The notes under the pieces: generated by a model
Database searches by the model: none
The model's input: only the letters and a program-made list of their open reading frames with translations
What the model was told of the DNA's origin: nothing
Shown here: in pieces, positions 1-41,066 of the stretch
Position numbering within the stretch: position 1 is the first letter of the stretch
Layout of the letters: the number at the start of each line of letters is the position of its first letter
Source: Naegleria gruberi
Taxonomy: Eukaryota
Direction: 5' to 3' (one strand)
Assembly: GCA_000004985.1 (NCBI GenBank)
Contig: GG738922.1
DNA length: 64,000 nt
Made by a program: the position numbers and the translations under genes

Positions 1-3000
1 TTGGGTCCTGATTTGTGTCAGTGTCCTTTAGGATATTTTGGTTTGAATTGCTCAATTCCTAAATGTTTCGGCTTACTGGGAAATGAAACTAATGTTTGTG
101 GAGCAAAGGGTTCTTGCATTGCTCCAGATAAGTGCTTGTGCCAATCTGATATTCTTGGAGATGTTTGTAATGTTTTCAAATGTTTCAACAAACTTTCGAA
201 TGAAACTAATGTCTGTGGAGGAAATGGGTCATGCATTGGATTAGACAAATGTTTGTGCAAAGATGGATTTTTTGGTGAGCTATGTGATAAGGTGAAATGT
301 TTCGGCAAGCTTTCGAATGAAACTGGAGTGTGTGGTTTGGGTCAATGTATTGGAACTGATTTGTGTCAGTGTCCTTTAGGATACTTTGGTTTGAATTGTT
401 CAATTCCTAAATGTTTCGGCTTACTGGGAAATGACACTAATGTTTGTGGAGGAAACGGTTCGTGTATTTCTCCTGATCAGTGTTTATGTAAAAGTGGCTT
501 ATTTGGAGATTTATGTGATAAGGTGAAGTGTTTCGGCAAGCTTTCGAATGAATCAGGTGTCTGTGGTTTCGGTCAATGTATTGGAACTGACCTATGTCAA
601 TGCTTACCTGGATACAGCGGAGAGAAATGTAATTTATTCAAATGTTTCAACAAATTCATGAACGATACCAATGTCTGCAACTTGGGAACTTGTTTGGGTC
701 CTGATGTGTGTCAATGTCCATTGAATAAGTTTGGTCTTGATTGTTCCCTTTCGAATTGTTTCGGCATTCTCTCAAACGAAACCAATGTTTGTGGAGGAAA
801 GGGCATTTGTACAGGACTAGATCAATGTCTATGTCAACCAGATGCCTTAGGTCCAGTTTGTAATGTTTTCAAGTGTTTCGGCCATTTATCCAACGAAACT
901 AATGTATGTGGTTTCGGCCAATGTGTAGGAGCTGATATCTGTAGCTGTTTACCAGGTTATGGTGGTGAAAGATGTGACATTCTCAAATGTGGCAATTTCC
1001 TAGCAAACGAAACTGGTGTCTGTAATGGATTAGGTTTATGTACTCAACCTGGAAAGTGTCTCTGTAATCAAGTTGGTGTTTTGGGAGATTTATGTAATGT
1101 ATTCGATTGTTTTGGAAAGTTATCGAATCAATCAGGAGTTTGTGGTTTAGGTTCATGTATTTTACCAAATATTTGTAATTGTCCACTTGATGTATTTGGT
1201 TTCGAATGCAATGACTTTAAATGTGGTTTATTATGGAAAAACGAAAGTTCTGTATGTAATTCGAAAGGTTCATGTATTGGCCCTAATTTGTGTCAATGTT
1301 TGAATGGATATGGTGGTCAATTCTGCCAAGATTTTTCATGTTTTGGAAAAGTAGCTGGTGCTTGTTCCAATCAAGGTCAATGTATTGGACCTAATCAATG
1401 TCTTTGTAATGACAATTACTTTGGAAGTTTTTGTAACATTACAACATGTTTTACAAAATGGTCAAATTCAAGTAATCCTGCAGAGGTTTGTTCTGGAAGA
1501 GGACAATGTGTTGGTCTTGATTTATGTCAATGTATTGATGGGTTTGATGGACAAAATTGTCAGGTTGATTTGAGAATGTTTGGAGTTCAATTGAATTCTT
1601 CACAAAATGTGAATGTCATGTGGAATGACAAGTCAGATGTCAATTTGGTATTTTCCACACTTCCTGAACTGATTATTGAGCCACCTGTGTCAAATCCTCG
1701 ATTGAGATTTGAAGTAACTTGTTTGACTAATTGTGTGGGTAAAGATTCCTTCCTAGTTTCATCCAGTGTCATTAACCAATTGACTGGTCAATTCAACGTC
1801 CAGCTCAATACTTCCTTCTTGTTAGATTTGGGACTTCCAAACTTCCAATTCAAAGTTAAAGCATATTATGCTAACAATGCTCCATACGCCGAAAGATTTT
1901 CCAATTATCTCTACTTTAACATCAATGTTTCAGGAGGTTTACAAAAGATGAGATCTTTGGGAATTCCACAATATTTCATCAAGTCAAGTTTCCAATCAAC
2001 TGAGATAATTAACATTGATTCGACGATATTCGGCATGTATTTGGATAGAATTACTTATTACAACTTGGTCAAAAGTGTTTGCTCTTGGGGTTCTTGTTTA
2101 ACTCCTAGTCAACCGTTGAAGTTTAGTTTCATAGTTGATGAGGAAAAGACAAATTCAACATTTTCCAATATTTTAAATCAATCTGGTGATTTAATCATCA
2201 ATTCTCTTTCTCCAATAATTAATAATGATGGATTCACTCTTGTTGAAATTACTTTCCATAAGAGAAATATTGAACTTTCCAGAGATTTGACTCTTTATCA
2301 GGAAACTAAACAATTTAATCTTGGATTGAATATTTCCAATACAGATGGAATGAATCTAGATAGTTGGTTCATATCCATTCCAGTTTATTCCTTTTCAATT
2401 CCGACAAGTCCGTTATTCCAAGTTTCTCCATCAAGTGGTTTGGCATTGGATGTAGAATTTGATATTCAAATTAAACCTTGGTCAGTACCATCAGGATCTG
2501 GTATTCAATTGCAATATGCTATTGGATTTAGAGATGGATTGACAAGTGTCAGATTGTCAGAGTTCAGTACAAATACTTCACTTGACACTTACTTGCCATT
2601 CATTAGGCAAACTGAATCCAAGCAATCAACATTAGCTATGGTTCTGTTTGTTAAAGATTCTATTGGAAATGTCAGAACATTTACCGAAATTTCACAACAA
2701 GTTTCCATTACTGCCTTTAATGGAAATATTGAACAATTATTGGAAAAACTGAATACCATTGATGTTGCTTCCTATGATGAATCTTTCTCCTTCTTTAGTT
2801 CCATTTCAGATAAGAGAGAATTTATTAAGGGAGTTTTGAATAACGGACTTGAAATTGATACAACGTATCCTTCGTCTAGTTTAGTCAGATTGAGAAAACT
2901 TTCTCAAAATCAAACTCTATTGGATGAAGGAATAGTTTCATCTGTTTCCAAGAAAGTTGAATCGTTTGTTAATTCAACAAGTTTGAGTTATTTGAATGAA

Positions 3001-5457
3001 AAGAAATTATTGGGAAGAGTTCTAAACAAATTGTCAAGTGACAATTTGAATTCAACCTTGACAGTTACATCAAATATTTTGTCAAGCAAGTTGAATTATA
3101 AGAAATCAATTCAAGTTACAGAAGAATTATCAAGTATGGTACTTTTGGGTGAGGAAGCTATTTCAGTTTCGAATAATGCATCTTTACCAATTGTGGAATA
3201 TTCTCTTCCATCATTTACAATTTCAGTTTCAAGCTTTAGATTGGAATCAAAATCCAATTCAACAACTTCCTTCTCATTCCAAAATAGTATTTCACTCAAT
3301 TTGAATGATATTTTAACCTCTTACAATGGATTTACAAAAGATTCAGGTGTTTCTCTACTTGTTTACAATGATAATCCAGTTTCTGAGGAAAATTCCACTC
3401 AAAGTTCTCACATTAAGAACTTTAAATTCTTTATCGATAACTCTTTAACCATTTTACAAAATTTGAAAGAACCAATCGTCTTGTCTTTCCCAATTTTGGT
3501 AACCAACACTACAGGTTTCAACTTTTCATGCAAATATCTGGATGAAGTTGCCAATTTATGGAAATCTGATGGTTGCTCTTTGATTGGATCTGATTCATCC
3601 AATGCCTATTGTGCATGTACTCACACAACCATGTTTTCTACATTTTTGGAAAGAACCACAACCACAACAATTACACCAGGAAAACCACTCGATAGTAATA
3701 CTGCTCTCCTGTTAGCTCAAATTGCCTTTGGTGTTGTATTTTCCATAATTTCACTTGTTGGTCTTGTTTTCATTTCGATTAATAGAAACAAGCAACCAAT
3801 TAAGAGTAGATTTGTAACTCCATATTTGGGATTGAGTGCCTTGTTGATTGAATGTGTTTTGGCGTTTATTGTGCAGAGAAGTGTCTTGGTTGCTAACTTG
3901 TACGAAACTGATTCGAATGCCAAGAAGAATAATGATTATGCAGCAAACATTTTGGCTAATATTGTTACAATTATTGTAAACACGATCAACCTGACAGCAA
4001 TTTTGAGCTATTTGATCCAAGTAAGCAGATTCCAAATATTGAAATACCTCTACCATATTATGAGATCTCGTTCTGATCAGGAAATGGCAAAACAAATCAA
4101 GCATGTGAGAAGAATTTCATCCAACAAATTATTTGCAACAATTCTCTCAATCTTTGCCGTATTGAATGTTATTTATTGGACAGTGCTAGTTATTTTGTTA
4201 AGAACTGGAGTGTTGACTGCTGAAATTTACACCTACATTGTCTCAATTTCCTATTCTGCAATTATCATTCTTTTAGGAATTTGCATTAGTTCAGTAATTT
4301 TATTTGATGGAATTTCCTACATGTCCATTGAAAAGAAGAGAAGAAATTTGATCGATGCAGCAATGAGTAGAATTATGGGAAATTTGGGTTCAGAAAATGG
4401 TCAAAAAACCACCAGAGAATTCTTCCTTGTTAGACTAAAGAATTGGTTCACTAGTTTGGATGGTCCACTCTACTTTAGAGCTGAAATGATTTGTTTCTTG
4501 ATTAGTTTCTTCTTCCTTTTGGCTAATCAAATTATTGGATTGTCAACACTTTCACTCAGAAATCTTTCGAATAGTTCACAGACAGCTATTACCAATATTT
4601 CCATTGATACTTCTTTAATTGTCACAGATTCCTTAATATTTGCCTTTGAAATTTTATATGCCATTTGGTATGTGTTAGTGTTTGGAGGTTTGGCTTCCTT
4701 TATTTTCACCAAGATGAATATTCGTGCTCTATTGGAAGGCAAACTAAACTCCAAGAAGAAACAAAATCAAGGAAATCAGGTTGCTCTTGAGGAGTCTTCA
4801 GAATTGGGAGAAGATATGAAACGTGTCTTTGACGACCAAGATGGATACAACTTGTTTGAAGTGTATTGTATTAAGGAAATGGCCTCGGAGAATTTATATC
4901 TCTTCAAGGAATTACAATCTTCAGTCAGCTTAACCAGATCAGCAACCATTTCAGTACCAGACTTGTATGATCTCTTAACCAATGTCAGGAAAGTTTATAT
5001 TGCTTCTGGAGCCACTTGCGAAGTTAATATTTCTGCAAAATGTAGAAAGGAATTTGAAGCATTCTATTTTAGAGTTGAAAGAATGAAGAAATCAGAAATT
5101 CATGAAATTTTCAACTCAAATTCTTCAACTCCTCCAAAATCTGCAAACAATAAGAAGTATGTTCTCACATCATGGATCCACAAATCTCCAAGAGAAACTC
5201 ATCATTCCATAAGTTCAGAAACTGCTCTTGTTAATGGTCCTCCATCACCAAAGAGTACTGACTCAATTGATACACTCAAGGAAGGTGAGATGTTGACAAG
5301 TAGACAAGTGACTGAAGGTATTGAAACATTGAAACAGGAGGTGATTATTAATCTTGGAGATACCTTCTCTCGTTTCATTTTCACAAAGGAGTATAAGTTG
5401 CTTCAACAAACTTCCTTACAAAAAACTCAATTATTAGAAACAACAAACTTGGTTTAA
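1..5457 (+). CDS. Giant adhesion-GPCR-like receptor, 5'-partial (ORF runs off the window start): tandem tenascin-type EGF modules, long N-glycosylated ectodomain, GAIN/GPS motif, 7TM, C-terminal RGS domain
   Basis: EGF modules of form C-x-C-x(5)-G-x(2)-C repeat about 40 times (nt 1-1560). GPS motif 'CKYLDEVANLWKSDGC...CACTHTTMFSTF' lies at about nt 3520-3650. Seven hydrophobic helices span about nt 3700-4730. RGS box 'LFEVYCIKEMASENLYLFKEL...EVNISAKCRKE' lies at about nt 4850-5080. Stop at 5455-5457. Confidence 0.7.
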   Translation: MGPDLCQCPLGYFGLNCSIPKCFGLLGNETNVCGAKGSCIAPDKCLCQSDILGDVCNVFKCFNKLSNETNVCGGNGSCIGLDKCLCKDGFFGELCDKVKCFGKLSNETGVCGLGQCIGTDLCQCPLGYFGLNCSIPKCFGLLGNDTNVCGGNGSCISPDQCLCKSGLFGDLCDKVKCFGKLSNESGVCGFGQCIGTDLCQCLPGYSGEKCNLFKCFNKFMNDTNVCNLGTCLGPDVCQCPLNKFGLDCSLSNCFGILSNETNVCGGKGICTGLDQCLCQPDALGPVCNVFKCFGHLSNETNVCGFGQCVGADICSCLPGYGGERCDILKCGNFLANETGVCNGLGLCTQPGKCLCNQVGVLGDLCNVFDCFGKLSNQSGVCGLGSCILPNICNCPLDVFGFECNDFKCGLLWKNESSVCNSKGSCIGPNLCQCLNGYGGQFCQDFSCFGKVAGACSNQGQCIGPNQCLCNDNYFGSFCNITTCFTKWSNSSNPAEVCSGRGQCVGLDLCQCIDGFDGQNCQVDLRMFGVQLNSSQNVNVMWNDKSDVNLVFSTLPELIIEPPVSNPRLRFEVTCLTNCVGKDSFLVSSSVINQLTGQFNVQLNTSFLLDLGLPNFQFKVKAYYANNAPYAERFSNYLYFNINVSGGLQKMRSLGIPQYFIKSSFQSTEIINIDSTIFGMYLDRITYYNLVKSVCSWGSCLTPSQPLKFSFIVDEEKTNSTFSNILNQSGDLIINSLSPIINNDGFTLVEITFHKRNIELSRDLTLYQETKQFNLGLNISNTDGMNLDSWFISIPVYSFSIPTSPLFQVSPSSGLALDVEFDIQIKPWSVPSGSGIQLQYAIGFRDGLTSVRLSEFSTNTSLDTYLPFIRQTESKQSTLAMVLFVKDSIGNVRTFTEISQQVSITAFNGNIEQLLEKLNTIDVASYDESFSFFSSISDKREFIKGVLNNGLEIDTTYPSSSLVRLRKLSQNQTLLDEGIVSSVSKKVESFVNSTSLSYLNEKKLLGRVLNKLSSDNLNSTLTVTSNILSSKLNYKKSIQVTEELSSMVLLGEEAISVSNNASLPIVEYSLPSFTISVSSFRLESKSNSTTSFSFQNSISLNLNDILTSYNGFTKDSGVSLLVYNDNPVSEENSTQSSHIKNFKFFIDNSLTILQNLKEPIVLSFPILVTNTTGFNFSCKYLDEVANLWKSDGCSLIGSDSSNAYCACTHTTMFSTFLERTTTTTITPGKPLDSNTALLLAQIAFGVVFSIISLVGLVFISINRNKQPIKSRFVTPYLGLSALLIECVLAFIVQRSVLVANLYETDSNAKKNNDYAANILANIVTIIVNTINLTAILSYLIQVSRFQILKYLYHIMRSRSDQEMAKQIKHVRRISSNKLFATILSIFAVLNVIYWTVLVILLRTGVLTAEIYTYIVSISYSAIIILLGICISSVILFDGISYMSIEKKRRNLIDAAMSRIMGNLGSENGQKTTREFFLVRLKNWFTSLDGPLYFRAEMICFLISFFFLLANQIIGLSTLSLRNLSNSSQTAITNISIDTSLIVTDSLIFAFEILYAIWYVLVFGGLASFIFTKMNIRALLEGKLNSKKKQNQGNQVALEESSELGEDMKRVFDDQDGYNLFEVYCIKEMASENLYLFKELQSSVSLTRSATISVPDLYDLLTNVRKVYIASGATCEVNISAKCRKEFEAFYFRVERMKKSEIHEIFNSNSSTPPKSANNKKYVLTSWIHKSPRETHHSISSETALVNGPPSPKSTDSIDTLKEGEMLTSRQVTEGIETLKQEVIINLGDTFSRFIFTKEYKLLQQTSLQKTQLLETTNLV

Positions 5458-5499: not shown

Positions 5500-6726
5500 T
5501 TAGTCTCTCAAACGTTTTACATTCTCGTGGAACCATTCCAAATCTAATGAATTGATTGAAGTTTTCCAAACATCTGCCCAATCCTCTCCAGTTAACATAT
5601 CACTAATTTCAATTTTCAAATTAAATAGAGAATCAAAGCTAAAGCTTTCAGATCCAAGAATGTCAAAACTTCTAACCACGCCATCATAGATGAGGTTTTT
5701 GTGATTTTGATCCAGCACTATACCAGTTATGGACTCCAAGTATTTAGCCAGACTATCAATGTGAGTGTATTCCCCAGCACTGATTGCTTTTTTGAAAATT
5801 CCAACTCTTTCCAAATAATTATCTCTATATTCTTGTCCTGAAATTACTGGGAATAGAGTTTGATCGATACAGACCAGTGATTTGTGAGTTTTAGAGAAGA
5901 GAACATTACCAGCATTTCCAGTATGTTCCCAAACATCCTTCAATGGAATTCTGTCACAATTATTACATAATAAATCCAAAACAAGCATTCTTCCTAATTC
6001 TTTCAATACAGTCTCCGAAGTTAACAATTCTCTTGAGAGCTCTGGTTGACCCATCAAATCCTCCAAAGTAATAGCTCCTTCCACAAATTCCATTATTAAA
6101 AAGAAAGCTCTATCTAATTGTTTGTTCACTTTCATTTCAATAATTTGATGATTTTTTTCCTTTGCAATTCTAACCATATTATCTTTCATAGCCCACCATT
6201 CTCTATCTGAGTATGAAAATAGCTTGGACTTGTCTCGTTTCGGGCAATATTCAACTAATCTTGTTGCAGGAGCTTTCAATTCCAACAATTGTGCAATTCT
6301 AGATCCAAAAATCTCTGCTGCAATTGATGAGGTTGCCTTAACCACAATAACCTTTCCAGATTCCTGTGTTTCCACAAAGAAAACTCCACTCGAAGTATTT
6401 TCACTAATTCCAATATTCCTTACACTATTCCAATCAATTTTCTCATCTAATGGCCAAGCCTTAGCATTTGCCATATCAATTTTTTCCTCAGTTTCAACAG
6501 TCCACTTTTTCTTGACCCTTCCCGATGCTGGTGGTTGTTGAATTATATGATTACCTCCTGGAGGAGGTGGAGGAACAGAAACACTCGAAGGTGGAGGAGG
6601 TGGTGGAACATTCTTCCTATTTATACAAGCAGCAATCATCGATGACGATGGAGGAAGAGGAACAGTCGATCCCGAAGGTGGTGGTGGAACATTGGTAGGT
6701 TCGTTTGGAGGTGGTGGCGGAATCAT
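5500..6726 (-). CDS. Pro-rich N-terminus followed by an atypical protein-kinase-like domain; function uncertain
   Basis: The 409-codon ORF begins at TTG; the first ATG is 6726..6724 (MIPPPPP...). It has PPPPP runs and a kinase-like core: 'GVFFVE...KVIVVK', 'LIMEFVEG', 'CDRIP...NAGNVLF', 'LVCIDQ'. Confidence 0.45.
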   Translation of the reverse strand: MIPPPPPNEPTNVPPPPSGSTVPLPPSSSMIAACINRKNVPPPPPPSSVSVPPPPPGGNHIIQQPPASGRVKKKWTVETEEKIDMANAKAWPLDEKIDWNSVRNIGISENTSSGVFFVETQESGKVIVVKATSSIAAEIFGSRIAQLLELKAPATRLVEYCPKRDKSKLFSYSDREWWAMKDNMVRIAKEKNHQIIEMKVNKQLDRAFFLIMEFVEGAITLEDLMGQPELSRELLTSETVLKELGRMLVLDLLCNNCDRIPLKDVWEHTGNAGNVLFSKTHKSLVCIDQTLFPVISGQEYRDNYLERVGIFKKAISAGEYTHIDSLAKYLESITGIVLDQNHKNLIYDGVVRSFDILGSESFSFDSLFNLKIEISDMLTGEDWADVWKTSINSLDLEWFHENVKRLRD

Positions 6727-6925
6727 CAAGTATTTATATTCTTATTTTTTTTAATATTTGTTATTTAATTTTGGATGAACTTGGCAAATATTTGTAAATT
6801 ACTATCATGTTCCAAGTTCTTTCTAACACGAATTGGCTCACCTTTATAATTTGGTGTTCTTATTAATTTTTTGTTCAATAAGCATTGAGGTGTATCGATC
6901 TTTCTTGGAGGTGCAATTTCAAATT

Positions 6926-29729: not shown

Positions 29730-32700
29730 ATGTCAAACAAGTTTATAAGAGATTGGTTGGCTTGTGTGGTGATTCTATTCCTTCTTTGTTCTGTTTCAAA
29801 TGCTGGTAGCTTGGCAATTGTTTGTATTCCTGGCGAGTACATTAGTGGTAGTGCTTGTCTAGATTGTCCAGGAGGCACCTATTCAAGTGGCATGACGACA
29901 TCTTGCTCTGATTGTTCAGCTGGTTATTATTCTGAAGTAGGCTCAACAAGTTCTGACTGCTCTATATGTGCTGCTGGAACTTACTCAAATAATAGAGCCT
30001 CAAGTTGTACTAACTGTGCAGGTGGAACATATTCAGCTGGTGGAGCTTCGAGTTGTACCAGTTGCTCAGCAGGTTATTATTCAAGTGCTGGCTCGTCATC
30101 ATGTTATCAATGTGGAGCTGGAACTTATTCAACTGGTGGAGCTTCAAGTTGTACTAACTGTGCAGCTGGTTATTATTCATCGACTGTTGGAGCAACAAGT
30201 TCCTCAGTTTGTTTGATGTGCAGTGCAGGAACATATTCCACAATATCAGTTGCTGGTGGAGCTTCGAGTTGTACTAGTTGCTCAGCTGGTTACTATTCAA
30301 GTGCTGGAGCATCATCATGTTCTCAATGTGGAGCTGGTACTTATTCAGCTGTTAGCTCATCAAGTTGTACCAATTGTGCAGCTGGTTCATATTCAAGTGC
30401 TGGCTCATCCAGCTGTACTAGTTGTTCAGCTGGTTATCGTTCAAGTGCTGGGTCTTCTTCTTGCTCCCAATGTGGTGCTGGTACTTACTCAGCTGGTGGA
30501 GCTTCGAGTTGTACCAGTTGTTCAGCAGGTTATTATTCAAGTGCTGGCTCGTCATCATGTTCTCAATGTGGAGCTGGAACATACTCAGCTGGTGGAGCTT
30601 CAAGTTGCACTAATTGTGGAGCAGGTACTTATTCTTCGACAGTTGGAGGAACAAGCTCCTCAGTTTGCTTAAATTGTGTAGCTGGTACTTATTCCACAAT
30701 TTCAGGAGCAACTAGTGCCACAGTGTGTCAAAATTGTAATGCAGGAAGTTTTTCAACTGGTGGCTCATCCAGTTGTACCAATTGTGCAGCAGGTTATTAT
30801 TCAGCTTCAGGTTCCTCATCATGTTCTCAATGTGGAGCTGGAACATATTCAACTGGTGGTTCATCAAGTTGTGCAAGTTGTGCAGCTGGTTCATATTCAA
30901 GTGCTGGTTCTTCCAGCTGCACTAGTTGTTCAGCAGGTTACTATTCAAATCCTGGTTCGTCATCATGTTCCCAATGTGGAGCTGGTACTTATTCAAGTAC
31001 TGGCTCATCTAGTTGTACTAGTTGCTCAGCAGGTTATTATTCAAACTCAGGTTCTTCATCATGTTCTCAATGCGGAGCTGGAACATATTCGACTGGAGGG
31101 TCCTCAGGTTGTACCAGTTGCTCTGCAGGTTATTATTCAAGCGCTGGTTCTTCTTCTTGCTCTCAATGTGGAGCTGGTACTTATTCAACTGGTGGAGCTT
31201 CCAGCTGTACTAGTTGCTTAGCTGGTTATTATTCAAGTGCTGGCTCTTCCTCTTGCTCCCAATGTGGAGCTGGAACTTACTCAACTGGTGGCTCATCCAG
31301 TTGCACTAATTGTGGAGCAGGTACTTATTCATCAACACCTGGCGCCACAAACGCTGGAGTTTGCTTGACATGTTCTGCTGGTTACTATTCAAGCGTTGGT
31401 GCCTCGTCTTGCTCTAAATGTTCTGCTGGTACTTATTCAAGTAGTGGCTCATCAAGTTGTACTAATTGTGCAGCTGGATATTATTCAACCTCAGGTTCTT
31501 CATCATGTTCTCAATGTGGGGCAGGAACATATTCGACTGGAGGGTCCTCAAGTTGTACCAGTTGCTCAGCTGGTTATTATTCAAGTGCTGGCTCGTCATC
31601 ATGTTCTCAATGTGGAGCTGGTACTTATTCAAGTACTGGCTCATCTAGTTGTACTAGTTGCTCAGCAGGTTATTATTCAACTTCAGGTTCTTCATCATGT
31701 TCTCAATGCGGAGCTGGAACATATTCGACTGGAGGGTCCTCGAGTTGTACCATTTGCTCAGCTGGTTATCGTTCAAGTGCTGGGTCTTCTTCTTGCTCTC
31801 AATGTGGAGCTGGAACATTTTCGACTGGTGGCTCTTCAAGTTGTGCAAATTGTACAGCTGGTTCATATTCAAGTGTGGGCTCTTCCAACTGTACTAGCTG
31901 CTTAGCAGGTTATTATTCAAGCACTGGTTCGTCATCATGTTCTCAATGTGGAGCTGGTACTTATTCAACTAGTGCCTCATCAAACTGTTCCAGTTGTGGA
32001 GCTGGTTCATATTCGAGTGCTGGAGCATCATCATGTTCTCAATGTGGAGCTGGAACATACTCAGCTGGTGGAGCTTCAAGTTGCACTAATTGTGGAGCAG
32101 GTACTTATTCTTCGACAGTTGGAGGAACAAATTCCTCAGTTTGCTTGAATTGTGTAGCTGGTACTTATTCATTCGAGACAGGAGCTGCAAGTGCTAATGT
32201 TTGCCAAAGTTGTAGAGCTGGAACTTATTCGTCGATGGGCTCTTCTAATTGCACCAATTGCACACCTGGTTTCTATTCAACCACTGTAAATGCAACCAGT
32301 TCAGCTACCTGCATACCTTGTTCTGCAGGTACCTTTAGTAATTCAACTGGTGCATCTTATTGCTTTCAATGTCCTGAAGGTACTAACAGTGCTTCAGGAT
32401 CTTCTTTATGCAACTCATTTTCTTGTTTCCAATATAATAATTGCTCTGGAAACGGTGTTTGTGTTTCGAATAACACTTGCTCCTGTTTTGAAGGATTTGA
32501 CGGATTGAATTGCAATATCTCTCTACCGTTCTCGATTAATCTTAACTCCTCATATGTTACCTTATCCACTACAAAAATATTCACAGTACTAGTTGTTGGA
32601 AATTATTCAGATATTATCAGATATGATGTCTTTTGTATGAATTGTTCTTTTCTCAATTTCACAACATCGAATAATTTGATAACTATTGACATGACTGGAC

Positions 32701-35700
32701 AAAATATTGGAAAATTTACATTGATGGTTGTGGCTACAATGAATAATAGTAGAATATCAGCTCCTAGTTCTTTGATTGTAGAAATAGTTCCCCTTATCAA
32801 TCCACCAAGTACAGGGAAATTTGGATTTTTGAGCATTCCCAAGATTGTGGAGAGGAATAACCCAAAACTTGATGTCATCATCTCGAATTTAACAGATGTA
32901 GATGAATCCTTTGTTGGAAACTGTGGGTTGCAAACAATGTGTTCTTTTAAGTTGACAACTTATTTAGTGGAACAAACTGAAAGTTCCAGCTTGACCCTTT
33001 GGACTCAATCGCAAGTAGTTGTTGGATCCAACAAGTATACAACTATATTCTTTACTCCACTTGTTTCTTTAAATCCATCGCTTACCTTTACAACTGTAAA
33101 TTCTACAACATTACTTCTTTATATGACACTTGAGTCTTCAAATGGAAACAATAGTTATAGTACTGCCATTCCTATTGTTGATTCGGCATTTGCACCAACA
33201 AACATCAATTTCACTAGTATGCCTCAGTCAGGTCCAGCAATCCAACAGATTTTCTCAATTAGTTCGTCACCTTGGAATGCACCATTACAAATTCAACCTT
33301 TGTTCTATTCCTATGGTATCTACCTTAGTGATACACAACAATATATTCAACTTTCTCCATTCACTCAATCAACTCAAGCATACATTCCTTTACCCTATTT
33401 GTCAGATGGCCCAGTTTCGGTTGCCATTTTTGTTAAGAATTCTTTAGGAAATATAATATCAAAAGTTCTTGGGCAAGTAACAGTCATTAAGTCAATTGGA
33501 AATGTGGACTACTTGAATCTTACTGATACGCAATTAGCAGTATCAGTGTTTGATCAATCTAGTCAACTCACCACTTCAGATATTTCAACAATTATTAGAA
33601 GAATTGATATTGGCTCTAATCCGGACTCACCCTTACTTTATTTAAATACATTGGTACTCAATAATATCTTGGATGGTTCACAATTAGGTCTATTATCAAA
33701 CAAACTTTATCATTTCCTTAATAACTCTGCAGCTTCCTACGAACAAGAAATGGTAAACTTTGGATTTGTCAAGAGCAAACTCTCAGAAGAGGCCCTGAAT
33801 TCAACATTTTCTATTATTTCAACTATTATAAGCAACTCAACCTTTGATGGATTATTAACTTCATTCTCTCAACTTGTTATTCAAAGCTCAATTCCTAAAG
33901 TCGTCTCTGATTCAGATATGACTTTTATTTCATACTCTTCAAATTTTGCTAAAGCTTCACTTGTATCTTTTGTGTTGCCATCTACCAATTATGGATACAA
34001 TTCAAACAGTTATTTTGTCAGCCCCACAGGAATGAATTTTTCTGTAACCCTGAATTTTACAGAAATTACATCTATCGGAGAGGCCAACACCCACGGATTG
34101 TCCATAATAACATTTTCTAATAATTCTAAATTGGATAACTATTCTATCAGCAATCAAATGCTGTCTAATGTGGCAGATTTTAAATATTTCCTGAATAATT
34201 CTTATGTGAAATTGAGAAATCTTAACAATCCTATTATTCTGAAATTTGATGTACAATCTGAAGTAATTGGAAATATCTCAAATCCATCTCTGATATCTTG
34301 TATGTATTGGGATGAAACATTCTCAATTTGGAGCACTGAAGGCTGCACTCTGGTTGGCTGGTCTAACAGTTCTGTTTTCTGTGGTTGTAATCACACCACT
34401 TCATTTGCAACCTTTATTGATTACAACCTATCTTCCATTGCAACAATAGGGGAAAAGACACAAGTTTCTGGACTATTTATCGCACAAATATTTTTTGGTT
34501 GTTTATTTGCTGTCATTTCCTTTGTCATGTTAATTCTGTTAGTCATATTTAGAAAACATCAACCTGTTTCAAGTAGGTTAATAACTCCTTACATGGGGAT
34601 GATAGCACTACTTGTGGAATGTATCAGTATTTTCATTATTCAGAGAAGTGTACTTGTTGACTATTTATGGAATAATAACATTGATTGGAGTTCAGGAACT
34701 AATGCTCCAAATGTAATCGCCAATATTACATTGATAATTGTGAATAGCTTGAATATTACTGCAATATTTTGTTACGTTTGGCAAACCATCAGATATGAAG
34801 TAATGAAGTATTTGTATGATTTGATTTCCAAAAGAACTGACAATCACCCAACAGGAATGAAAGTATTAAGAAGATTTGTCTCACAAACTCTATTTATTTC
34901 ATTAACAGCTATATGTCTTACTCTAAATATTGCATATTGGCTATTGTGGGTTATCTTGAGAAGAACAGAAGCCATTTCAGCAACTGCCTTCACCCAAATT
35001 ACTTCAATCTCATACACTGTTATTATTTTCGTATTCAGTGCCATTATTTCAGTTACTACAATTGTAGATGTCATTGCAGCATTGATTGGACAGGATATTT
35101 ACTTCAAAAGAAAAGTGCATTCCAATAACAAAATATTGAAAGAAAGTACTTCCTCTTTGGAAATGCAACTCGCATTAGCTCCACATCCTAAAAACAAGTT
35201 TTTCCACACTGATGCTCCGCTCTATTTTAGAACTGAGATGATTGCTTATGTGATTTGTTTTGCATTAATGATCGTTCAACAAGTAACAGGTTTAAGTGTT
35301 TATTCCAACTCAGATGCAATTGTAAATATTGAAATTGTCAATTTGGTCTTTCAATTACTGTACTATATTTCATTCATTGGAGTGTTTGGAGGTTTTTCAT
35401 TGACAGTTTTGTTAATTTATAGAAAAAAATCAAAGAAATCATCCCACGATGCCTCTGAACTGAATGAAATTATCAATGAGGTTATTGGATTACAATTATT
35501 CGAAGTGTTTTGTGAATCAGAATTTTCCACTGAAAATCTTTACTTGTATCAATTACTGAAAGAAAATGAGAATATAAATTCAGAAGCAAATATCATGAAA
35601 TTATCAACTTTCGTAAGAACTATTTTCGAATTGTTCATTCAAAGAAATTCCAAGTACGAGGTTAACATTCCATCAAGTGTTTCAACAAATTTCAAACATT

Positions 35701-35927
35701 TGATAAACATATTAGAAAGTACAAACATTGAACTGCAACAAGATGAAACCAATTCACCTTTGAAACTAAAGTCAAAGGAGGTATTTAGTGACCTTTTGGA
35801 TCAAATTTTATTGAACTTGGAGGATACCTTTTCAAGGTTTGTAACATTGGACGTTTATGAAAGATACAAAGAAAAGAAAGATTGGAAGACAAACATGTTA
35901 GCACAATCAAATATAAGCGTTCAATAA
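29730..35927 (+). CDS. Giant adhesion-GPCR-like receptor: signal peptide, about 45 ephrin-receptor-like (GCC2/GCC3-type) Cys-rich modules, EGF module, GAIN/GPS, 7TM, C-terminal RGS domain
   Basis: Signal peptide 'VVILFLLCSVSNA'. Modules 'C..C.AG.YS..G.SSC' span about nt 29830-32420. EGF 'CSGNGVCVSNNTCSCFEGFDGLNC'. GPS 'CMYWDETFSIWSTEGC...CGCNHTTSFATF' lies at about 34300-34420. Seven TM helices span about 34470-35425. RGS box 'LFEVFCESEFSTENLYLYQLL...KYEVNIPSSV' lies at about 35495-35720. Confidence 0.8.
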   Translation: MSNKFIRDWLACVVILFLLCSVSNAGSLAIVCIPGEYISGSACLDCPGGTYSSGMTTSCSDCSAGYYSEVGSTSSDCSICAAGTYSNNRASSCTNCAGGTYSAGGASSCTSCSAGYYSSAGSSSCYQCGAGTYSTGGASSCTNCAAGYYSSTVGATSSSVCLMCSAGTYSTISVAGGASSCTSCSAGYYSSAGASSCSQCGAGTYSAVSSSSCTNCAAGSYSSAGSSSCTSCSAGYRSSAGSSSCSQCGAGTYSAGGASSCTSCSAGYYSSAGSSSCSQCGAGTYSAGGASSCTNCGAGTYSSTVGGTSSSVCLNCVAGTYSTISGATSATVCQNCNAGSFSTGGSSSCTNCAAGYYSASGSSSCSQCGAGTYSTGGSSSCASCAAGSYSSAGSSSCTSCSAGYYSNPGSSSCSQCGAGTYSSTGSSSCTSCSAGYYSNSGSSSCSQCGAGTYSTGGSSGCTSCSAGYYSSAGSSSCSQCGAGTYSTGGASSCTSCLAGYYSSAGSSSCSQCGAGTYSTGGSSSCTNCGAGTYSSTPGATNAGVCLTCSAGYYSSVGASSCSKCSAGTYSSSGSSSCTNCAAGYYSTSGSSSCSQCGAGTYSTGGSSSCTSCSAGYYSSAGSSSCSQCGAGTYSSTGSSSCTSCSAGYYSTSGSSSCSQCGAGTYSTGGSSSCTICSAGYRSSAGSSSCSQCGAGTFSTGGSSSCANCTAGSYSSVGSSNCTSCLAGYYSSTGSSSCSQCGAGTYSTSASSNCSSCGAGSYSSAGASSCSQCGAGTYSAGGASSCTNCGAGTYSSTVGGTNSSVCLNCVAGTYSFETGAASANVCQSCRAGTYSSMGSSNCTNCTPGFYSTTVNATSSATCIPCSAGTFSNSTGASYCFQCPEGTNSASGSSLCNSFSCFQYNNCSGNGVCVSNNTCSCFEGFDGLNCNISLPFSINLNSSYVTLSTTKIFTVLVVGNYSDIIRYDVFCMNCSFLNFTTSNNLITIDMTGQNIGKFTLMVVATMNNSRISAPSSLIVEIVPLINPPSTGKFGFLSIPKIVERNNPKLDVIISNLTDVDESFVGNCGLQTMCSFKLTTYLVEQTESSSLTLWTQSQVVVGSNKYTTIFFTPLVSLNPSLTFTTVNSTTLLLYMTLESSNGNNSYSTAIPIVDSAFAPTNINFTSMPQSGPAIQQIFSISSSPWNAPLQIQPLFYSYGIYLSDTQQYIQLSPFTQSTQAYIPLPYLSDGPVSVAIFVKNSLGNIISKVLGQVTVIKSIGNVDYLNLTDTQLAVSVFDQSSQLTTSDISTIIRRIDIGSNPDSPLLYLNTLVLNNILDGSQLGLLSNKLYHFLNNSAASYEQEMVNFGFVKSKLSEEALNSTFSIISTIISNSTFDGLLTSFSQLVIQSSIPKVVSDSDMTFISYSSNFAKASLVSFVLPSTNYGYNSNSYFVSPTGMNFSVTLNFTEITSIGEANTHGLSIITFSNNSKLDNYSISNQMLSNVADFKYFLNNSYVKLRNLNNPIILKFDVQSEVIGNISNPSLISCMYWDETFSIWSTEGCTLVGWSNSSVFCGCNHTTSFATFIDYNLSSIATIGEKTQVSGLFIAQIFFGCLFAVISFVMLILLVIFRKHQPVSSRLITPYMGMIALLVECISIFIIQRSVLVDYLWNNNIDWSSGTNAPNVIANITLIIVNSLNITAIFCYVWQTIRYEVMKYLYDLISKRTDNHPTGMKVLRRFVSQTLFISLTAICLTLNIAYWLLWVILRRTEAISATAFTQITSISYTVIIFVFSAIISVTTIVDVIAALIGQDIYFKRKVHSNNKILKESTSSLEMQLALAPHPKNKFFHTDAPLYFRTEMIAYVICFALMIVQQVTGLSVYSNSDAIVNIEIVNLVFQLLYYISFIGVFGGFSLTVLLIYRKKSKKSSHDASELNEIINEVIGLQLFEVFCESEFSTENLYLYQLLKENENINSEANIMKLSTFVRTIFELFIQRNSKYEVNIPSSVSTNFKHLINILESTNIELQQDETNSPLKLKSKEVFSDLLDQILLNLEDTFSRFVTLDVYERYKEKKDWKTNMLAQSNISVQ
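29830..32330 (+). repeat. Coding tandem repeat array (about 75/150-nt units, many copies over 90 percent identical) encoding ephrin-receptor-like Cys modules
   Basis: Sequence blocks such as 'tgctcagcaggttattattcaagtgctggctcgtcatcatgttctcaatgtggagctggaac' recur directly. The periodicity also creates the shadow ORFs seen in other frames. Confidence 0.85.
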
Positions 35928-39476: not shown

Positions 39477-41066
39477 ATGTTTCCACTCATAAAAAGCCTT
39501 TCCGATATTCAAGCTTGTTTTTCTTCGGCAATTAACCAACAAGAAGATGTCCATCATCTTCATACAAAATCAAACTCTATTATCGGAGGCTTTTCTAACA
39601 ATAATTTAATGGATCAATTCAAGATTGAACGTGATGGTGGTTACATCTTTATCAAATATAAACATGCTATATCGATGAAAGATACTTTTCCTGATCCGAA
39701 TGATGAATTTCTATCTGCAGAGGAACGTTTGAATTATCAACTCAGAAGGGAATGTAGAGGAATTGTATTTCGGAATGATCAAGATGATGATGAAGTAAAT
39801 ATTCAGCAGGAAAATATACAAAATGATGAAAAGAAGGTGAAAGGAAGAATCATTTCGAGAAAGTTTCACAAGTTTTTCAATATTAATGAGAGGGAGGAGA
39901 GTAATGTGGAGAGTATAAATTGGAGAAGAGGTTTTATTGTGATGGAAAAGATGGATGGATCATTGGTTTCGCCACTGAGGATTATTCGAAACGATGATTT
40001 GAATGATGGGATAGAAGATTCGAATAGAGTGTGGACATTTACTTCAATGTTGGGATTTACAGAAACTGGACAAGCTGTGGATGAGTTCATCTATCAAGAA
40101 ATGGAGGGAAGAAAGAGAGACAAATTATTCGAATTGTGTGAATATTGTGAAGAGAGTGGAATAACTCCATTATTTGAATTTTGTTCAAAGGAAAACAAGG
40201 TTGTTATTGAACATGAAAAGACAAGTTTAATCCTTTTGGCATTTAGAAATATAGAATCTGGAGAATATATGTCCTTCAAAGATACTGTTAACACTCTCAA
40301 CAAGTTCAATAACCCGGTTCCTATTGTAAAACTGTGGAAGGAATATCCTAATGGATTGAAAGGAGTAGAGGATGCAAACAAGCTCTTGAAGGAAATTTAT
40401 GCCCAAAAGAATGTTGAAGGATATGTCATTAGATTTTATGAAGGTGACATGTATAAGGTAAAGACCACATGGTACACAAGCTTGCATGGATTGGAAACTA
40501 CAGGAAAGTTTATTAGAGATCGACACGTTATTAAGGGAATTTTGGAGAATAATGTTGATGATATCATTTCTAGTTCCTTCTTTAACGGAGAGGAAAAGAA
40601 GAGGAAAGCTCTTCAATTATTCAGAGATGAAGTTGAAAGAAGGATACTCCTTAAAATTGCTGAAACCACAAAGGAATTGAAGGAGAAATCAATTGATGAC
40701 ATTTCACCAGATTCAATCACTGGTAAATTTTACTATTATCTCACTTCAGAGCATCCACAAGAAGCTATCAACAATTCAGATCTCATAACATCCGTATACT
40801 ATTCATTCCTCATTGAATATTTTAAGCTTAATGGAAGAGAATTCGATAGACACCGAAAATTATTCTACAAGTATCTCTCTATTGATTTCTCAGTCATGAA
40901 ACCTTACCATTTCACACATGAAGGAATTTTATCAGAACCAAGCAGCAGCAGCACTCCACCTAAAAAACAAGCACAACCACCAAGATATGCCGCTTCCAAA
41001 AACGATTCCACAAACCAATCATCAAACTCTGCAAAACCATCAGTTGACAAGAAGAAACGCAAGTAA
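39477..41066 (+). CDS. ATP-dependent RNA ligase-like protein (T4 Rnl1 / Trl1 ligase-domain type nucleotidyltransferase) with basic C-terminal tail
   Basis: Motif I 'EKMDGSLVS' (KxDG, about 39947-39970; compare T4 Rnl1 KEDGSLVS). Motif IV 'EGYVIRF' (about 40426). Motif V 'YKVKTTW' (KxK). The order and spacing match the covalent nucleotidyltransferase fold. Confidence 0.6.
   Translation: MFPLIKSLSDIQACFSSAINQQEDVHHLHTKSNSIIGGFSNNNLMDQFKIERDGGYIFIKYKHAISMKDTFPDPNDEFLSAEERLNYQLRRECRGIVFRNDQDDDEVNIQQENIQNDEKKVKGRIISRKFHKFFNINEREESNVESINWRRGFIVMEKMDGSLVSPLRIIRNDDLNDGIEDSNRVWTFTSMLGFTETGQAVDEFIYQEMEGRKRDKLFELCEYCEESGITPLFEFCSKENKVVIEHEKTSLILLAFRNIESGEYMSFKDTVNTLNKFNNPVPIVKLWKEYPNGLKGVEDANKLLKEIYAQKNVEGYVIRFYEGDMYKVKTTWYTSLHGLETTGKFIRDRHVIKGILENNVDDIISSSFFNGEEKKRKALQLFRDEVERRILLKIAETTKELKEKSIDDISPDSITGKFYYYLTSEHPQEAINNSDLITSVYYSFLIEYFKLNGREFDRHRKLFYKYLSIDFSVMKPYHFTHEGILSEPSSSSTPPKKQAQPPRYAASKNDSTNQSSNSAKPSVDKKKRK

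What the first reader, a model, noticed from the sequence alone, without database searches (positions are those of the whole stretch)
1..5457. Second, paralogous GPS-7TM-RGS receptor with an EGF rather than ephrin-like ectodomain
The 5'-truncated ORF at the window start has the same C-terminal architecture as the 29730..35927 gene: GPS 'CACTHTTMFSTF', seven TMs and the RGS box 'LFEVYCIKEMASENLYLFKEL'. Its ectodomain, however, is built from about 40 tenascin-type EGF modules. Two such genes within 30 kb suggest a lineage-specific family whose ectodomains evolved by module swapping.
Basis: seen in the sequence. Interest (0 to 1): 0.55.

Follow-up and report, generated by a model that had tools for sequence, protein, structure and literature searches.

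The report
Naegleria GPS-7TM-RGS receptor, EGF ectodomain
This is the C-terminal 1818 residues of an already catalogued but uncharacterised Naegleria gruberi gene (NAEGRDRAFT_59845), an ordinary member of the amoeba's large published family of adhesion-receptor-like seven-transmembrane proteins that carry a G-protein-inactivating RGS domain on their tail.

Summary
ORF 1..5457 (+) is open from base 1. It encodes an EGF array, a long stalk, a GPS motif (CACTHTTMFSTF), seven hydrophobic helices and a C-terminal RGS domain. It aligns with the gene at 29730..35927 over about 1070 residues (30% identity, E = 3e-107). The window holds 13 complete EGF modules plus one partial module, not about 40; the full protein has 16.

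The window is Naegleria gruberi. The ORF is an exact suffix of XP_002669791.1 (2091 aa, "predicted protein"), and the second gene is XP_002669798.1.

The family is published. Bosch et al. 2022 (PMC9283941) describe 28 "7TM RGS" proteins in N. fowleri. Several have GPS motifs, EGF-like repeats and lectin domains, and three RGS domains were shown to be GAPs for Naegleria Gα subunits.

At least 15 N. gruberi members lie on contigs of 14 different lengths. Relatives occur in N. fowleri, Willaertia magna and environmental contigs. Across the family the core is conserved while the N-terminal modules vary (EGF, NHL, RCC1, Ephrin_rec_like and others), which supports module shuffling. The two window genes are distant paralogs (32% core identity) and are not sisters in a rough tree.

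Most likely function: an adhesion-type surface receptor whose cytoplasmic RGS domain accelerates Gα GTP hydrolysis. It is a new member of a known kind and of low interest.

The parts
1..5457 (+). 5'-truncated single-exon ORF. It is the C-terminal 1818 aa of N. gruberi NAEGRDRAFT_59845 (XP_002669791.1, 2091 aa); the stop codon is at 5455-5457.
   Evidence: ORF list and translation. Exact suffix match to P0004, with 273 aa missing upstream. Accession and organism.
1..1560 (+). EGF array: one 5'-cut module (aa 1-17) plus 13 complete six-cysteine tenascin/teneurin-type modules (aa 22-520). Modules are 38-43 aa, and 12 of 13 carry an N-x-S/T sequon between Cys1 and Cys2.
   Evidence: Pfam EGF_TEN, EGF_2 and EGF_Teneurin. 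Cysteine pattern count. Module alignment with mean identity 49% and maximum 74%. TRF finds no DNA-level tandem repeat.
1561..2727 (+). Extracellular stalk (aa 521-909), Ser/Thr/Asn-rich and mostly beta-strand in the model. Colinear with the stalk of the paralog and of the N. fowleri relative. REJ-like only by homology to relatives.
   Evidence: Alignment A2. BLAST/tblastn homology from aa 774 onward. Pfam REJ at 28.2 bits in N. fowleri P0151 and in 2 of 26 members, but not in this protein. The model here is low-confidence.
2728..3657 (+). GAIN-like domain (aa ~910-1219): six helices (subdomain A) followed by about eleven strands (subdomain B) ending in the GPS.
   Evidence: AlphaFold secondary structure: helices at model residues 151-291 and strands at 312-460, offset +759. 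The top two Foldseek hits are BAI3 GAIN (E = 6.3e-4) and the GPR110 ectodomain (E = 1.7e-3), on a low-pLDDT model. All 15 PDB profile hits are adhesion-GPCR GAIN/GPS regions; ADGRL3 scores E = 2.3e-5 over about 130 residues.
3529..3645 (+). GPS motif (aa 1177-1215): C1177, W1187, G1191-C1192, C1204, C1206, H1208-T1209|T1210, F1212, F1215. The predicted autoproteolysis site lies between T1209 and T1210, leaving a Stachel-like TMFSTFLE about 24 residues before TM1.
   Evidence: Positions. These columns are invariant or nearly invariant in 26 members. The motif aligns in register with ADGRL3 CSCNHLTNFAVLM and ADGRF1 CQCTHLTSFSILM. H-x-S/T is the canonical GPS motif (abstract of PMC13062082). Cleavage itself is inferred.
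3694..4716 (+). Seven-transmembrane domain (aa 1232-1572). Family-invariant motifs are 'QPxxSRxxTP' after TM1, 'PLYFRxE' before TM6 and 'FGG' in TM7.
   Evidence: Kyte-Doolittle segments. Seven long helices in the AlphaFold model at pLDDT 60-85. Invariant columns. No Pfam 7tm family matched.
4798..5445 (+). Cytoplasmic RGS domain (aa ~1600-1815). It keeps the family-invariant E1630-N1631, N1676 (in 'EVN') and D1787/R1791 (in 'NLGDTFSRF').
   Evidence: Pfam RGS at 21.1 bits, E = 4e-4, below the cutoff. Profile hits to RGS5/4/16 at E = 1e-8 to 4e-6. AlphaFold model with helices at pLDDT 83-96. The best Foldseek hits are nearly all RGS domains, led by RGS16, RGS8, RGS17 and RGS4. Invariant columns.
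5119..5277 (+). Disordered Ser/Thr/Pro-rich insert inside the RGS domain (aa ~1707-1759), at a site of variable length across the family.
   Evidence: pLDDT below 50 for model residues 118-170. Gap against the paralog and P0001 in alignment A1. The region is in frame, has the same GC content as the rest of the gene and lies inside the public single-exon model.
29730..35927 (+). Paralog NAEGRDRAFT_75241 (XP_002669798.1, 2065 aa): signal peptide, Ephrin_rec_like repeat array, one EGF module, stalk, GPS (CGCNHTTSFATF), 7TM and RGS.
   Evidence: Translation. Pfam Ephrin_rec_like with 14 stretches, E = 1e-65, and RGS at 37.8 bits. Identical to P0005. Seven hydrophobic segments.

Best explanation
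The ORF is the C-terminal 87% of Naegleria gruberi NAEGRDRAFT_59845. It is a single-exon, type-I-oriented surface protein of the heterolobosean '7TM RGS' family.

Full architecture: signal peptide, a possible B-lectin-like module, 16 glycosylatable tenascin/teneurin-type EGF modules, a long stalk, a GAIN-like domain with a GPS motif (H-T|T), seven transmembrane helices, and a cytoplasmic RGS domain with a disordered insert.

Most likely mechanism: the ectodomain binds an extracellular, surface or matrix ligand. The GAIN/GPS-7TM unit passes that event across the membrane. The RGS domain, held at the membrane, acts as a GTPase-accelerating protein on Naegleria G-alpha subunits. Ligand state therefore sets how strongly G-alpha-GTP is switched off, as in a receptor-GAP of the AtRGS1 type.

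Shown here: the identity, the architecture, the homology to the family, and retention of the RGS residues that are invariant across the family.

Inferred: GAP activity (demonstrated only for three N. fowleri family members), GPS cleavage, tethered-agonist behaviour and the ligand.
For: Identity:
- Exact suffix of XP_002669791.1.

Family:
- The profile search returns 93 representatives at E <= 1e-30, most of them covering GPS through RGS.
- Named members come from N. gruberi, N. fowleri and Willaertia magna.
- 25 of 26 members match Pfam RGS and 20 of 26 match GPS.

GPS/GAIN:
- Alignment in register with the GPS of ADGRL3 and ADGRF1; all 15 PDB hits are adhesion-GPCR GAIN regions.
- The model shows six helices followed by a beta-sandwich, and its top fold hits are GAIN domains.

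7TM:
- Hydropathy and the model agree on seven helices.

RGS:
- Family profile against RGS5/4/16.
- Confident helical model whose best matches are nearly all RGS domains.
- The family-invariant E-N, EVN-Asn and D..R columns align with the RGS4 segments 'SEEN' and 'EVN'. From Tesmer et al. 1997, recalled from memory, these segments contact G-alpha.

Topology:
- Signal peptide in the full protein, 32 N-glycosylation sequons in the ectodomain, and an odd number of TM helices, which places the RGS in the cytoplasm.

Function by analogy:
- The RGS domains of Nf 7TM RGS2-4 bind Nf G-alpha subunits and accelerate their GTP hydrolysis. The same paper describes GPS motifs, EGF-like repeats and lectin domains in the family (PMC9283941).
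Against: - This protein's RGS domain alone scores below Pfam's gathering threshold, is invisible to a single-sequence PDB search and carries an insert of about 55-90 residues. It could be a weak or inactive GAP.
- The GAIN-7TM model is poor (mean pLDDT 52), so the fold matches are only suggestive.
- No evidence here bears on expression, cleavage, ligand or G-alpha partner.
- TM2-TM7 show no detectable sequence similarity to any solved GPCR, and the fold hits spread over classes A, B1 and F. Whether the 7TM can also act as a GEF is open.
Confidence: 0.8

Rival explanations
1. It is a true adhesion-type GPCR. After GPS cleavage and removal of the ectodomain, the exposed Stachel (TMFSTFLE...) activates the 7TM, which acts as a GEF for a G protein. 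The fused RGS then serves as a built-in terminator, so the protein is both GEF and GAP.
For: The GPS is in register with animal adhesion GPCRs, including H-x-T and hydrophobic residues at Stachel positions 3, 6 and 7 (TMFSTFL against TNFAVLM). About 24 residues separate the site from TM1. The alignment with ADGRL3 extends past the GPS towards TM1 (profile positions 16-129). Bosch et al. report Naegleria G-alpha subunits with slow nucleotide exchange, which would need a GEF (PMC9283941).
Against: No Pfam 7tm_2 or other GPCR family matches this protein, and none appears among the 25 most frequent families for the 26 members. There is no PDB sequence similarity beyond TM1. Fold hits are not specific to class B2. 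No 7TM-RGS protein is shown to have GEF activity in the literature read here.
Confidence: 0.25
2. The RGS domain of this particular member is a degenerate RGS-homology module. It scaffolds or localises rather than acting as a GAP, and the protein works mainly as an adhesion or matrix-binding molecule.
For: Pfam RGS is below threshold at 21.1 bits. The single-sequence PDB search is negative. There is a long disordered insert inside the domain. Non-GAP RGS-homology domains are known (stated in PMC3971589).
Against: All RGS columns that are invariant across 26 family members are kept in this protein. Helices on both sides of the insert are modelled at pLDDT above 90 and match RGS folds. Inserts at the same site occur in other family members (and the sequences).
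Confidence: 0.15
3. The two genes in the window are a recent local tandem duplication whose ectodomains were then exchanged.
For: Same strand, about 24 kb apart, and the same architecture.
Against: Core identity is only 31.9%, lower than gene 1's identity to about 25 other members, including N. fowleri proteins. In the NJ tree each groups with a different partner. The two genes are separated by more than ten unrelated ORFs. At least 13 other N. gruberi members lie on other contigs.
Confidence: 0.05

Closest known systems
Naegleria fowleri '7TM RGS' proteins (28 genes; Nf 7TM RGS1-4 studied; Bosch et al. 2022, J Biol Chem, PMC9283941)
   Same: Same architecture (GPS motif, EGF-like repeats, a possible lectin module, 7TM, C-terminal RGS) and direct sequence homology. 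The core is 37-41% identical to N. fowleri FDP41_004429, which pairs with this gene in the NJ tree.
   Different: It comes from another species, N. gruberi, and this gene has not been studied. Its RGS domain carries a long disordered insert and scores below Pfam's threshold. Which of the 28 N. fowleri genes corresponds to it under the paper's naming could not be mapped.
Animal adhesion GPCRs (class B2; e.g. latrophilin-3/ADGRL3, ADGRF1, BAI3)
   Same: A large modular ectodomain with EGF modules. A GAIN-like domain whose GPS aligns in register (four Cys, Trp, H-x-T, Phe at +3). A Stachel-like hydrophobic pattern, and similar spacing to TM1.
   Different: The P1 residue is Thr (H-T|T) in nearly all family members rather than Leu. 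The 7TM does not match Pfam 7tm_2 or any solved GPCR beyond TM1. The C-terminal RGS domain is absent from animal adhesion GPCRs; de Mendoza et al. report that metazoans lack 7TM-RGS proteins (PMC3971589).
Arabidopsis AtRGS1 and other 7TM-RGS receptor-GAPs (plants, Trichomonas)
   Same: A seven-TM domain fused to a C-terminal RGS domain. The proposed logic is a membrane receptor that regulates GTP hydrolysis on G-alpha rather than, or in addition to, nucleotide exchange (PMC9283941; PMC3971589).
   Different: From general knowledge, AtRGS1 has no large ectodomain, GAIN or GPS. Sequence relatedness of the two 7TM domains was not tested here.
Polycystin-1 / PKDREJ REJ-GAIN module
   Same: A GPS/GAIN preceded by a long stalk. 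The Pfam REJ model matches the N. fowleri relative (28.2 bits) and two of 26 family members (best E = 3.8e-27).
   Different: REJ is not detected in this protein itself. There is no PLAT domain or 11-TM channel-type membrane region; instead there is a 7TM plus RGS.

Membership tests
Heterolobosean (Naegleria) 7TM RGS family | Seven transmembrane helices | tested here: met
   Seven hydropathy segments at aa 1232-1572, and seven long helices at the same positions in the AlphaFold model.
Heterolobosean (Naegleria) 7TM RGS family | RGS domain C-terminal to TM7 | tested here: met
   Pfam RGS at E = 4e-4 but below the cutoff. Family profile against RGS5/4/16 at E = 1e-8 to 4e-6. The RGS-fold model's best matches are nearly all RGS domains. 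25 of 26 relatives match Pfam RGS.
Heterolobosean (Naegleria) 7TM RGS family | Sequence homology to N. fowleri members across the 7TM-RGS core | tested here: met
   N. fowleri P0003 at E = 1.5e-115, and P0002 (whose cluster includes FDP41_004429) at E = 3e-163, with the family profile. Core identity 33-42%.
Heterolobosean (Naegleria) 7TM RGS family | GAP activity on G-alpha subunits | not testable with these tools
   Shown biochemically only for the RGS domains of Nf 7TM RGS2-4 (PMC9283941). Here, only the conserved residues could be checked.
Adhesion GPCR (class B2) | GAIN domain ending in a GPS motif (four Cys, Trp, H-x-S/T) | tested here: met
   All motif residues are present. The profile aligns in register with ADGRL3 and ADGRF1, and all 15 PDB hits are adhesion-GPCR GAIN regions. 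Fold support is weak because the model is poor. Pfam GPS misses this protein but hits 20 of 26 relatives.
Adhesion GPCR (class B2) | Secretin-like 7TM (Pfam 7tm_2) | tested here: not met
   No 7tm_2 hit at E <= 1 for the full-length protein, and none among the families listed for 26 members. No PDB sequence similarity beyond TM1. Foldseek hits to the 7TM are weak and spread over classes A, B1 and F.
Adhesion GPCR (class B2) | Autoproteolysis at the GPS and tethered-agonist activation | not testable with these tools
   Only the sequence prerequisites are seen: H1208, T1210 and the Stachel-like TMFSTFL.
AtRGS1-type plant 7TM-RGS | 7TM plus C-terminal RGS architecture | tested here: met
AtRGS1-type plant 7TM-RGS | Sequence homology of the 7TM domain to AtRGS1 | not tested
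   No AtRGS1 sequence was available through the tools. The representative library carries no names, and the named hits were all Naegleria or Willaertia.
Polycystin-1/PKDREJ-type REJ-GAIN proteins | REJ domain N-terminal to the GAIN | tested here: inconclusive
   Not detected in this protein at E <= 1. Detected in N. fowleri P0151 (28.2 bits against a cutoff of 25) and in 2 of 26 family members. The stalk is homologous to those relatives.
Tenascin/teneurin-type EGF repeats | Six-cysteine EGF_2/EGF_TEN modules above Pfam thresholds | tested here: met
   EGF_TEN 93.5 bits (cutoff 65), EGF_2 67.3 (22.1) and EGF_Teneurin 60.1 (24.3). 13 complete modules in the window.

The most novel reading that the evidence does not exclude
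The GAIN/GPS with its conserved Stachel-like TxFxxFL is a working tethered-ligand switch. It is coupled not to a class B2 GPCR but to a distinct 7TM class found, in this search, only fused to RGS, with signature motifs RKxQPxxSR, DPLYFRxE and FGG. On this reading heteroloboseans have a mechanically or adhesion-gated receptor-GAP, and the GAIN-7TM partnership either predates, or arose independently of, animal adhesion GPCRs.
Probability: 0.25. Interest if true: 0.6.

Novelty: new member of a known kind. Interest (0 to 1): 0.2.

Why it matters
For genome annotation, two N. gruberi 'predicted proteins' (XP_002669791.1 and XP_002669798.1) can be named as GPS-containing 7TM-RGS receptors. At least one family gene model (P0001) appears to be truncated at the GPS.

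Biologically the family is a natural experiment: an adhesion-GPCR-type ectodomain and GPS joined to a G-protein off-switch instead of the usual on-switch, in a lineage far from animals. It also supplies many ectodomain variants on one conserved core. That idea is already in the literature (Bosch et al. 2022), so this window adds another member and a module-level description, not a new principle.

Tried and rejected
- The look-up of encoding contigs with the 2065-aa paralog returned nothing on record, so the contig could not be extended that way. The missing N-terminus came instead from the representative search (P0004).
- The word-indexed homolog search was nearly blind here, returning 1, 3 and 4 hits. 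The third search, meant to name the GPS-less 7TM-RGS relatives, returned only unnamed JGI metagenome proteins. The distribution outside Heterolobosea therefore stays unknown.
- Tandem Repeats Finder found no DNA-level array in 1..5457. The EGF modules are at most about 76% identical at the DNA level, so there has been no recent repeat expansion.
- A single-sequence phmmer search of the RGS region against the PDB found no RGS hit.
- Unspliced in-frame intron as an explanation for the RGS insert: rejected. The insert is in frame, has the same GC content as the gene and lies inside the public single-exon model, and relatives have inserts at the same site.
- Recent tandem duplication: rejected.
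- The B-lectin reading of the N-terminus, which lies outside the window, is only weakly supported (pyocin L1 and lectin hits at E = 0.004-0.013; no Pfam hit).
- The GAIN-7TM structure prediction used only five sequences and came out poor (pLDDT 52). The 7TM class could not be assigned from it.
Full report
**1. What is in the sequence**

ORF 1..5457 on the + strand is open from the first base and ends at a stop codon at 5455-5457 (1818 codons). An ORF of this length in DNA of about 34% GC cannot arise by chance.

The translation has the following parts, in order.
- A cysteine-rich N-terminal 520 aa.
- A Ser/Thr/Asn-rich stretch of about 700 aa.
- The string CACTHTTMFSTF at aa 1204-1215 (nt 3610-3645).
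- Seven hydrophobic segments between aa 1232 and 1572.
- LFEVYCIKEMASENLYLFKEL at aa 1618-1638 (nt 4852-4914).

The one wrong number is the EGF count. The 81 cysteines in aa 1-520 form 13 complete six-cysteine modules plus one module cut by the window edge, not about 40. Pfam assigns them to the tenascin/teneurin EGF types: EGF_TEN 93.5 bits, EGF_2 67.3 and EGF_Teneurin 60.1, all above their cutoffs. The modules are 38-43 aa long and on average 49% identical (maximum 74% at the protein level, at most about 76% at the DNA level). Twelve of the 13 carry an N-x-S/T sequon between Cys1 and Cys2. Tandem Repeats Finder sees no DNA-level array, so the array is not a recent expansion.

**2. Where it comes from**

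A profile of the GPS-to-RGS core, searched against 1.84 billion representative proteins, returned a 2091-aa protein (P0004) and a 2065-aa protein (P0005) as best hits.
- The window ORF is an exact suffix of P0004, so 273 aa are missing upstream.
- The 29730..35927 product is identical to P0005.
- Both are Naegleria gruberi records: XP_002669791.1 / NAEGRDRAFT_59845 and XP_002669798.1 / NAEGRDRAFT_75241. Both are labelled 'predicted protein' and sit on a 209,908-bp scaffold.

The missing N-terminus holds a signal-peptide-like segment, a small cysteine motif, about 130 aa with weak similarity to B-lectin-type proteins (pyocin L1 and others, E = 0.004-0.013; no Pfam hit), and 2.5 more EGF modules. 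That gives 16 EGF modules in all.

The neighbouring ORFs are ordinary eukaryotic genes with no evident functional link: an actin-fragmin kinase, Sof1/WD40, PWI, F-box, LRR, BTB-MLLE, an RNA ligase and an alpha-2-macroglobulin-like giant.

**3. Paralogy of the two window genes**

BLASTP aligns aa 774-1817 of the ORF with aa 1130-2062 of the second gene: 30% identity over 1072 columns, E = 3e-107. A further segment joins the last EGF module of gene 1 to the single EGF module that precedes the stalk of gene 2. The shared core is therefore EGF, stalk, GAIN/GPS, 7TM and RGS, and only the N-terminal repeat arrays differ. Gene 2 carries Ephrin_rec_like repeats (14 stretches, E = 1e-65). tblastn finds only these two copies in the window.

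**4. Each domain, tested**

*GPS/GAIN.* Pfam's GPS model misses this protein but hits 20 of 26 full-length relatives.
- A three-sequence profile of the stalk and GPS hits only adhesion-GPCR GAIN/GPS regions in the PDB (15 of 15 hits). ADGRL3 scores E = 2.3e-5 over about 130 residues.
- The alignment places CaCnHTTmFstfl in register with CSCNHLTNFAVLM (ADGRL3) and CQCTHLTSFSILM (ADGRF1).
- The four cysteines, the Trp, His, Thr and Phe are invariant or nearly so in 26 members.
- Nearly all family members with a GPS have H-T-T rather than the animal H-L-T. This still fits the H-x-S/T motif given in the abstract of PMC13062082.
- The AlphaFold model of aa 760-1600 is poor (mean pLDDT 52, from five sequences). 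It nevertheless shows six helices, then about eleven strands, then seven long helices. Its two best Foldseek hits are the BAI3 GAIN domain (E = 6.3e-4) and the GPR110 ectodomain (E = 1.7e-3).

*7TM.* Hydropathy and the model agree on seven helices.
- No Pfam GPCR family matches.
- The PDB profile search finds nothing beyond TM1.
- The fold hits are weak and spread over classes A, B1 and F.

The 7TM class is therefore unassigned. The family has its own invariant motifs: QPxxSRxxTP after TM1, PLYFRxE before TM6 and FGG in TM7. GPS-less 7TM-RGS relatives from metagenomes also carry them.

*RGS.* On its own the domain scores 21.1 bits against a cutoff of 23.9 and finds no RGS in the PDB. Other evidence secures it.
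- The family profile hits RGS5, RGS4 and RGS16 at E = 1e-8 to 4e-6.
- 25 of 26 relatives match Pfam RGS.
- The AlphaFold model of aa 1590-1818 has helices at pLDDT 83-96, and its best Foldseek matches are nearly all RGS domains.
- The low score is explained by a disordered Ser/Thr/Pro-rich insert (aa ~1707-1759, pLDDT below 50) at a site whose length varies among relatives.
- The family-invariant E1630-N1631, N1676 and D1787/R1791 align with the 'SEEN' and 'EVN' segments of RGS4. From Tesmer et al. 1997, recalled from memory, these segments contact G-alpha.

**5. The family**

The profile search gives 1145 representatives at E <= 1e-3, 207 at <= 1e-10 and 93 at <= 1e-30. Most of the top 80 or so cover the whole GPS-7TM-RGS profile.

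Of the hits that could be named:
- 15 are N. gruberi proteins, on contigs of 14 different lengths;
- others are from N. fowleri and Willaertia magna;
- the rest are unnamed environmental or Logan contigs.

One N. gruberi member is already annotated 'G protein coupled receptor proteolytic domain-containing protein'.

The ectodomains of 26 full-length members carry EGF types (13), NHL (6), RCC1 (5), REJ (2), Ephrin_rec_like (1; gene 2, the only listed member with CxxCxxGxY repeats), beta-helix, PKD or Kelch domains. This is what module shuffling on a conserved core predicts.

A neighbour-joining tree of 39 cores (no bootstrap) pairs window gene 1 with N. fowleri FDP41_004429, and window gene 2 with other members. 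The two window genes share 31.9% core identity, the lowest of gene 1's comparisons within the closer clade. They are old paralogs, and their proximity does not reflect recent tandem duplication.

**6. What is known**

Bosch et al. 2022 (PMC9283941) report the following.
- N. fowleri encodes 28 '7TM RGS' proteins.
- Several have GPCR proteolytic site motifs, EGF-like repeats and lectin or carbohydrate-binding domains, 'reminiscent of the adhesion GPCRs'.
- The isolated RGS domains of Nf 7TM RGS2-4 bind several Nf G-alpha subunits and accelerate their GTP hydrolysis. Some of these subunits are self-activating.
- The RGS-insensitivity Gly-to-Ser mutation abolishes this effect.

De Mendoza et al. 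2014 (PMC3971589) note 7TM-RGS architectures in many bikonts and some unicellular opisthokonts, but not in metazoans.

**7. Mechanism**

The best-supported reading is an adhesion-type surface receptor whose membrane-tethered RGS domain acts as a GAP on Naegleria G-alpha subunits, so that the ligand state of the ectodomain modulates G-alpha-GTP lifetime (AtRGS1-type logic).
- Shown here: architecture, topology indicators, homology and conserved residues.
- Inferred: GAP activity, GPS cleavage, tethered-agonist behaviour and the ligand.

Rivals:
- a bifunctional GEF plus GAP adhesion GPCR (0.25);
- a degenerate, scaffold-only RGS in this member (0.15);
- recent tandem duplication as the origin of the pair (0.05).

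**8. Verdict**

The gene is a new member of a known kind, and interest is low (0.2).

The most novel reading not excluded is that the conserved GAIN/Stachel is a working tethered switch coupled to a distinct 7TM class found here only fused to RGS. Its probability is about 0.25 and its interest if true about 0.6.

Noticed in passing
P0001 (N. gruberi, 523 aa; found): This public gene model starts at the Met inside the GPS motif (HTT|MFSTF...). It is probably a 5'-truncated annotation that lacks its whole ectodomain.
   Followed up: partly
window 3622-3630 (H1208-T1209-T1210) and about 80 family members: The GPS reads H-T|T in nearly all family members instead of the animal H-L|T. Whether a Thr at P1 allows autoproteolysis is unknown.
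   Followed up: partly
window 3694-4716; metagenome proteins P0099, P0108, P0103: The motifs RKxQPxxSR (after TM1), DPLYFRxE (before TM6) and FGG (TM7) are family-invariant. They also occur in GPS-less 7TM-RGS proteins from unnamed environmental contigs, so the 7TM-RGS core seems older than its fusion to GAIN. The organisms could not be identified.
   Followed up: partly
window 41979-48800 (-): A 2272-aa alpha-2-macroglobulin-like protein (MG2, A2M bait region, A2M) whose C-terminus matches the bacterial-type MG10 domain (PF17973, E = 2e-28). This is a possible bacterial-like A2M in a protist.
   Followed up: no
window 39477-41066 (+): A 529-aa protein with a T4 Rnl1-type RNA ligase domain (PF09511, E = 2e-32).
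   Followed up: no
window 5500-6729 (-): A gene with an actin-fragmin kinase catalytic domain (PF09192, E = 3e-38) lies immediately downstream of the receptor gene, convergently oriented.
   Followed up: no
window 30001-32000: A local GC peak (0.447 against about 0.33) is caused by the Ser/Gly/Cys/Ala-rich Ephrin_rec_like repeat array of the second receptor gene.
   Followed up: yes
P0058 (JGI metagenome, 2174 aa): A full GPS-7TM-RGS family member is labelled 'tellurite resistance protein' by its source, which is very likely a mis-annotation.
   Followed up: no
P0004 aa 45-175 (upstream of the window): The missing N-terminus shows weak similarity to lectin-like bacteriocins and B-lectins (pyocin L1 and others, E = 0.004-0.013). 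This fits the 'lectin domains' reported for N. fowleri family members, but Pfam gives no hit.
   Followed up: partly
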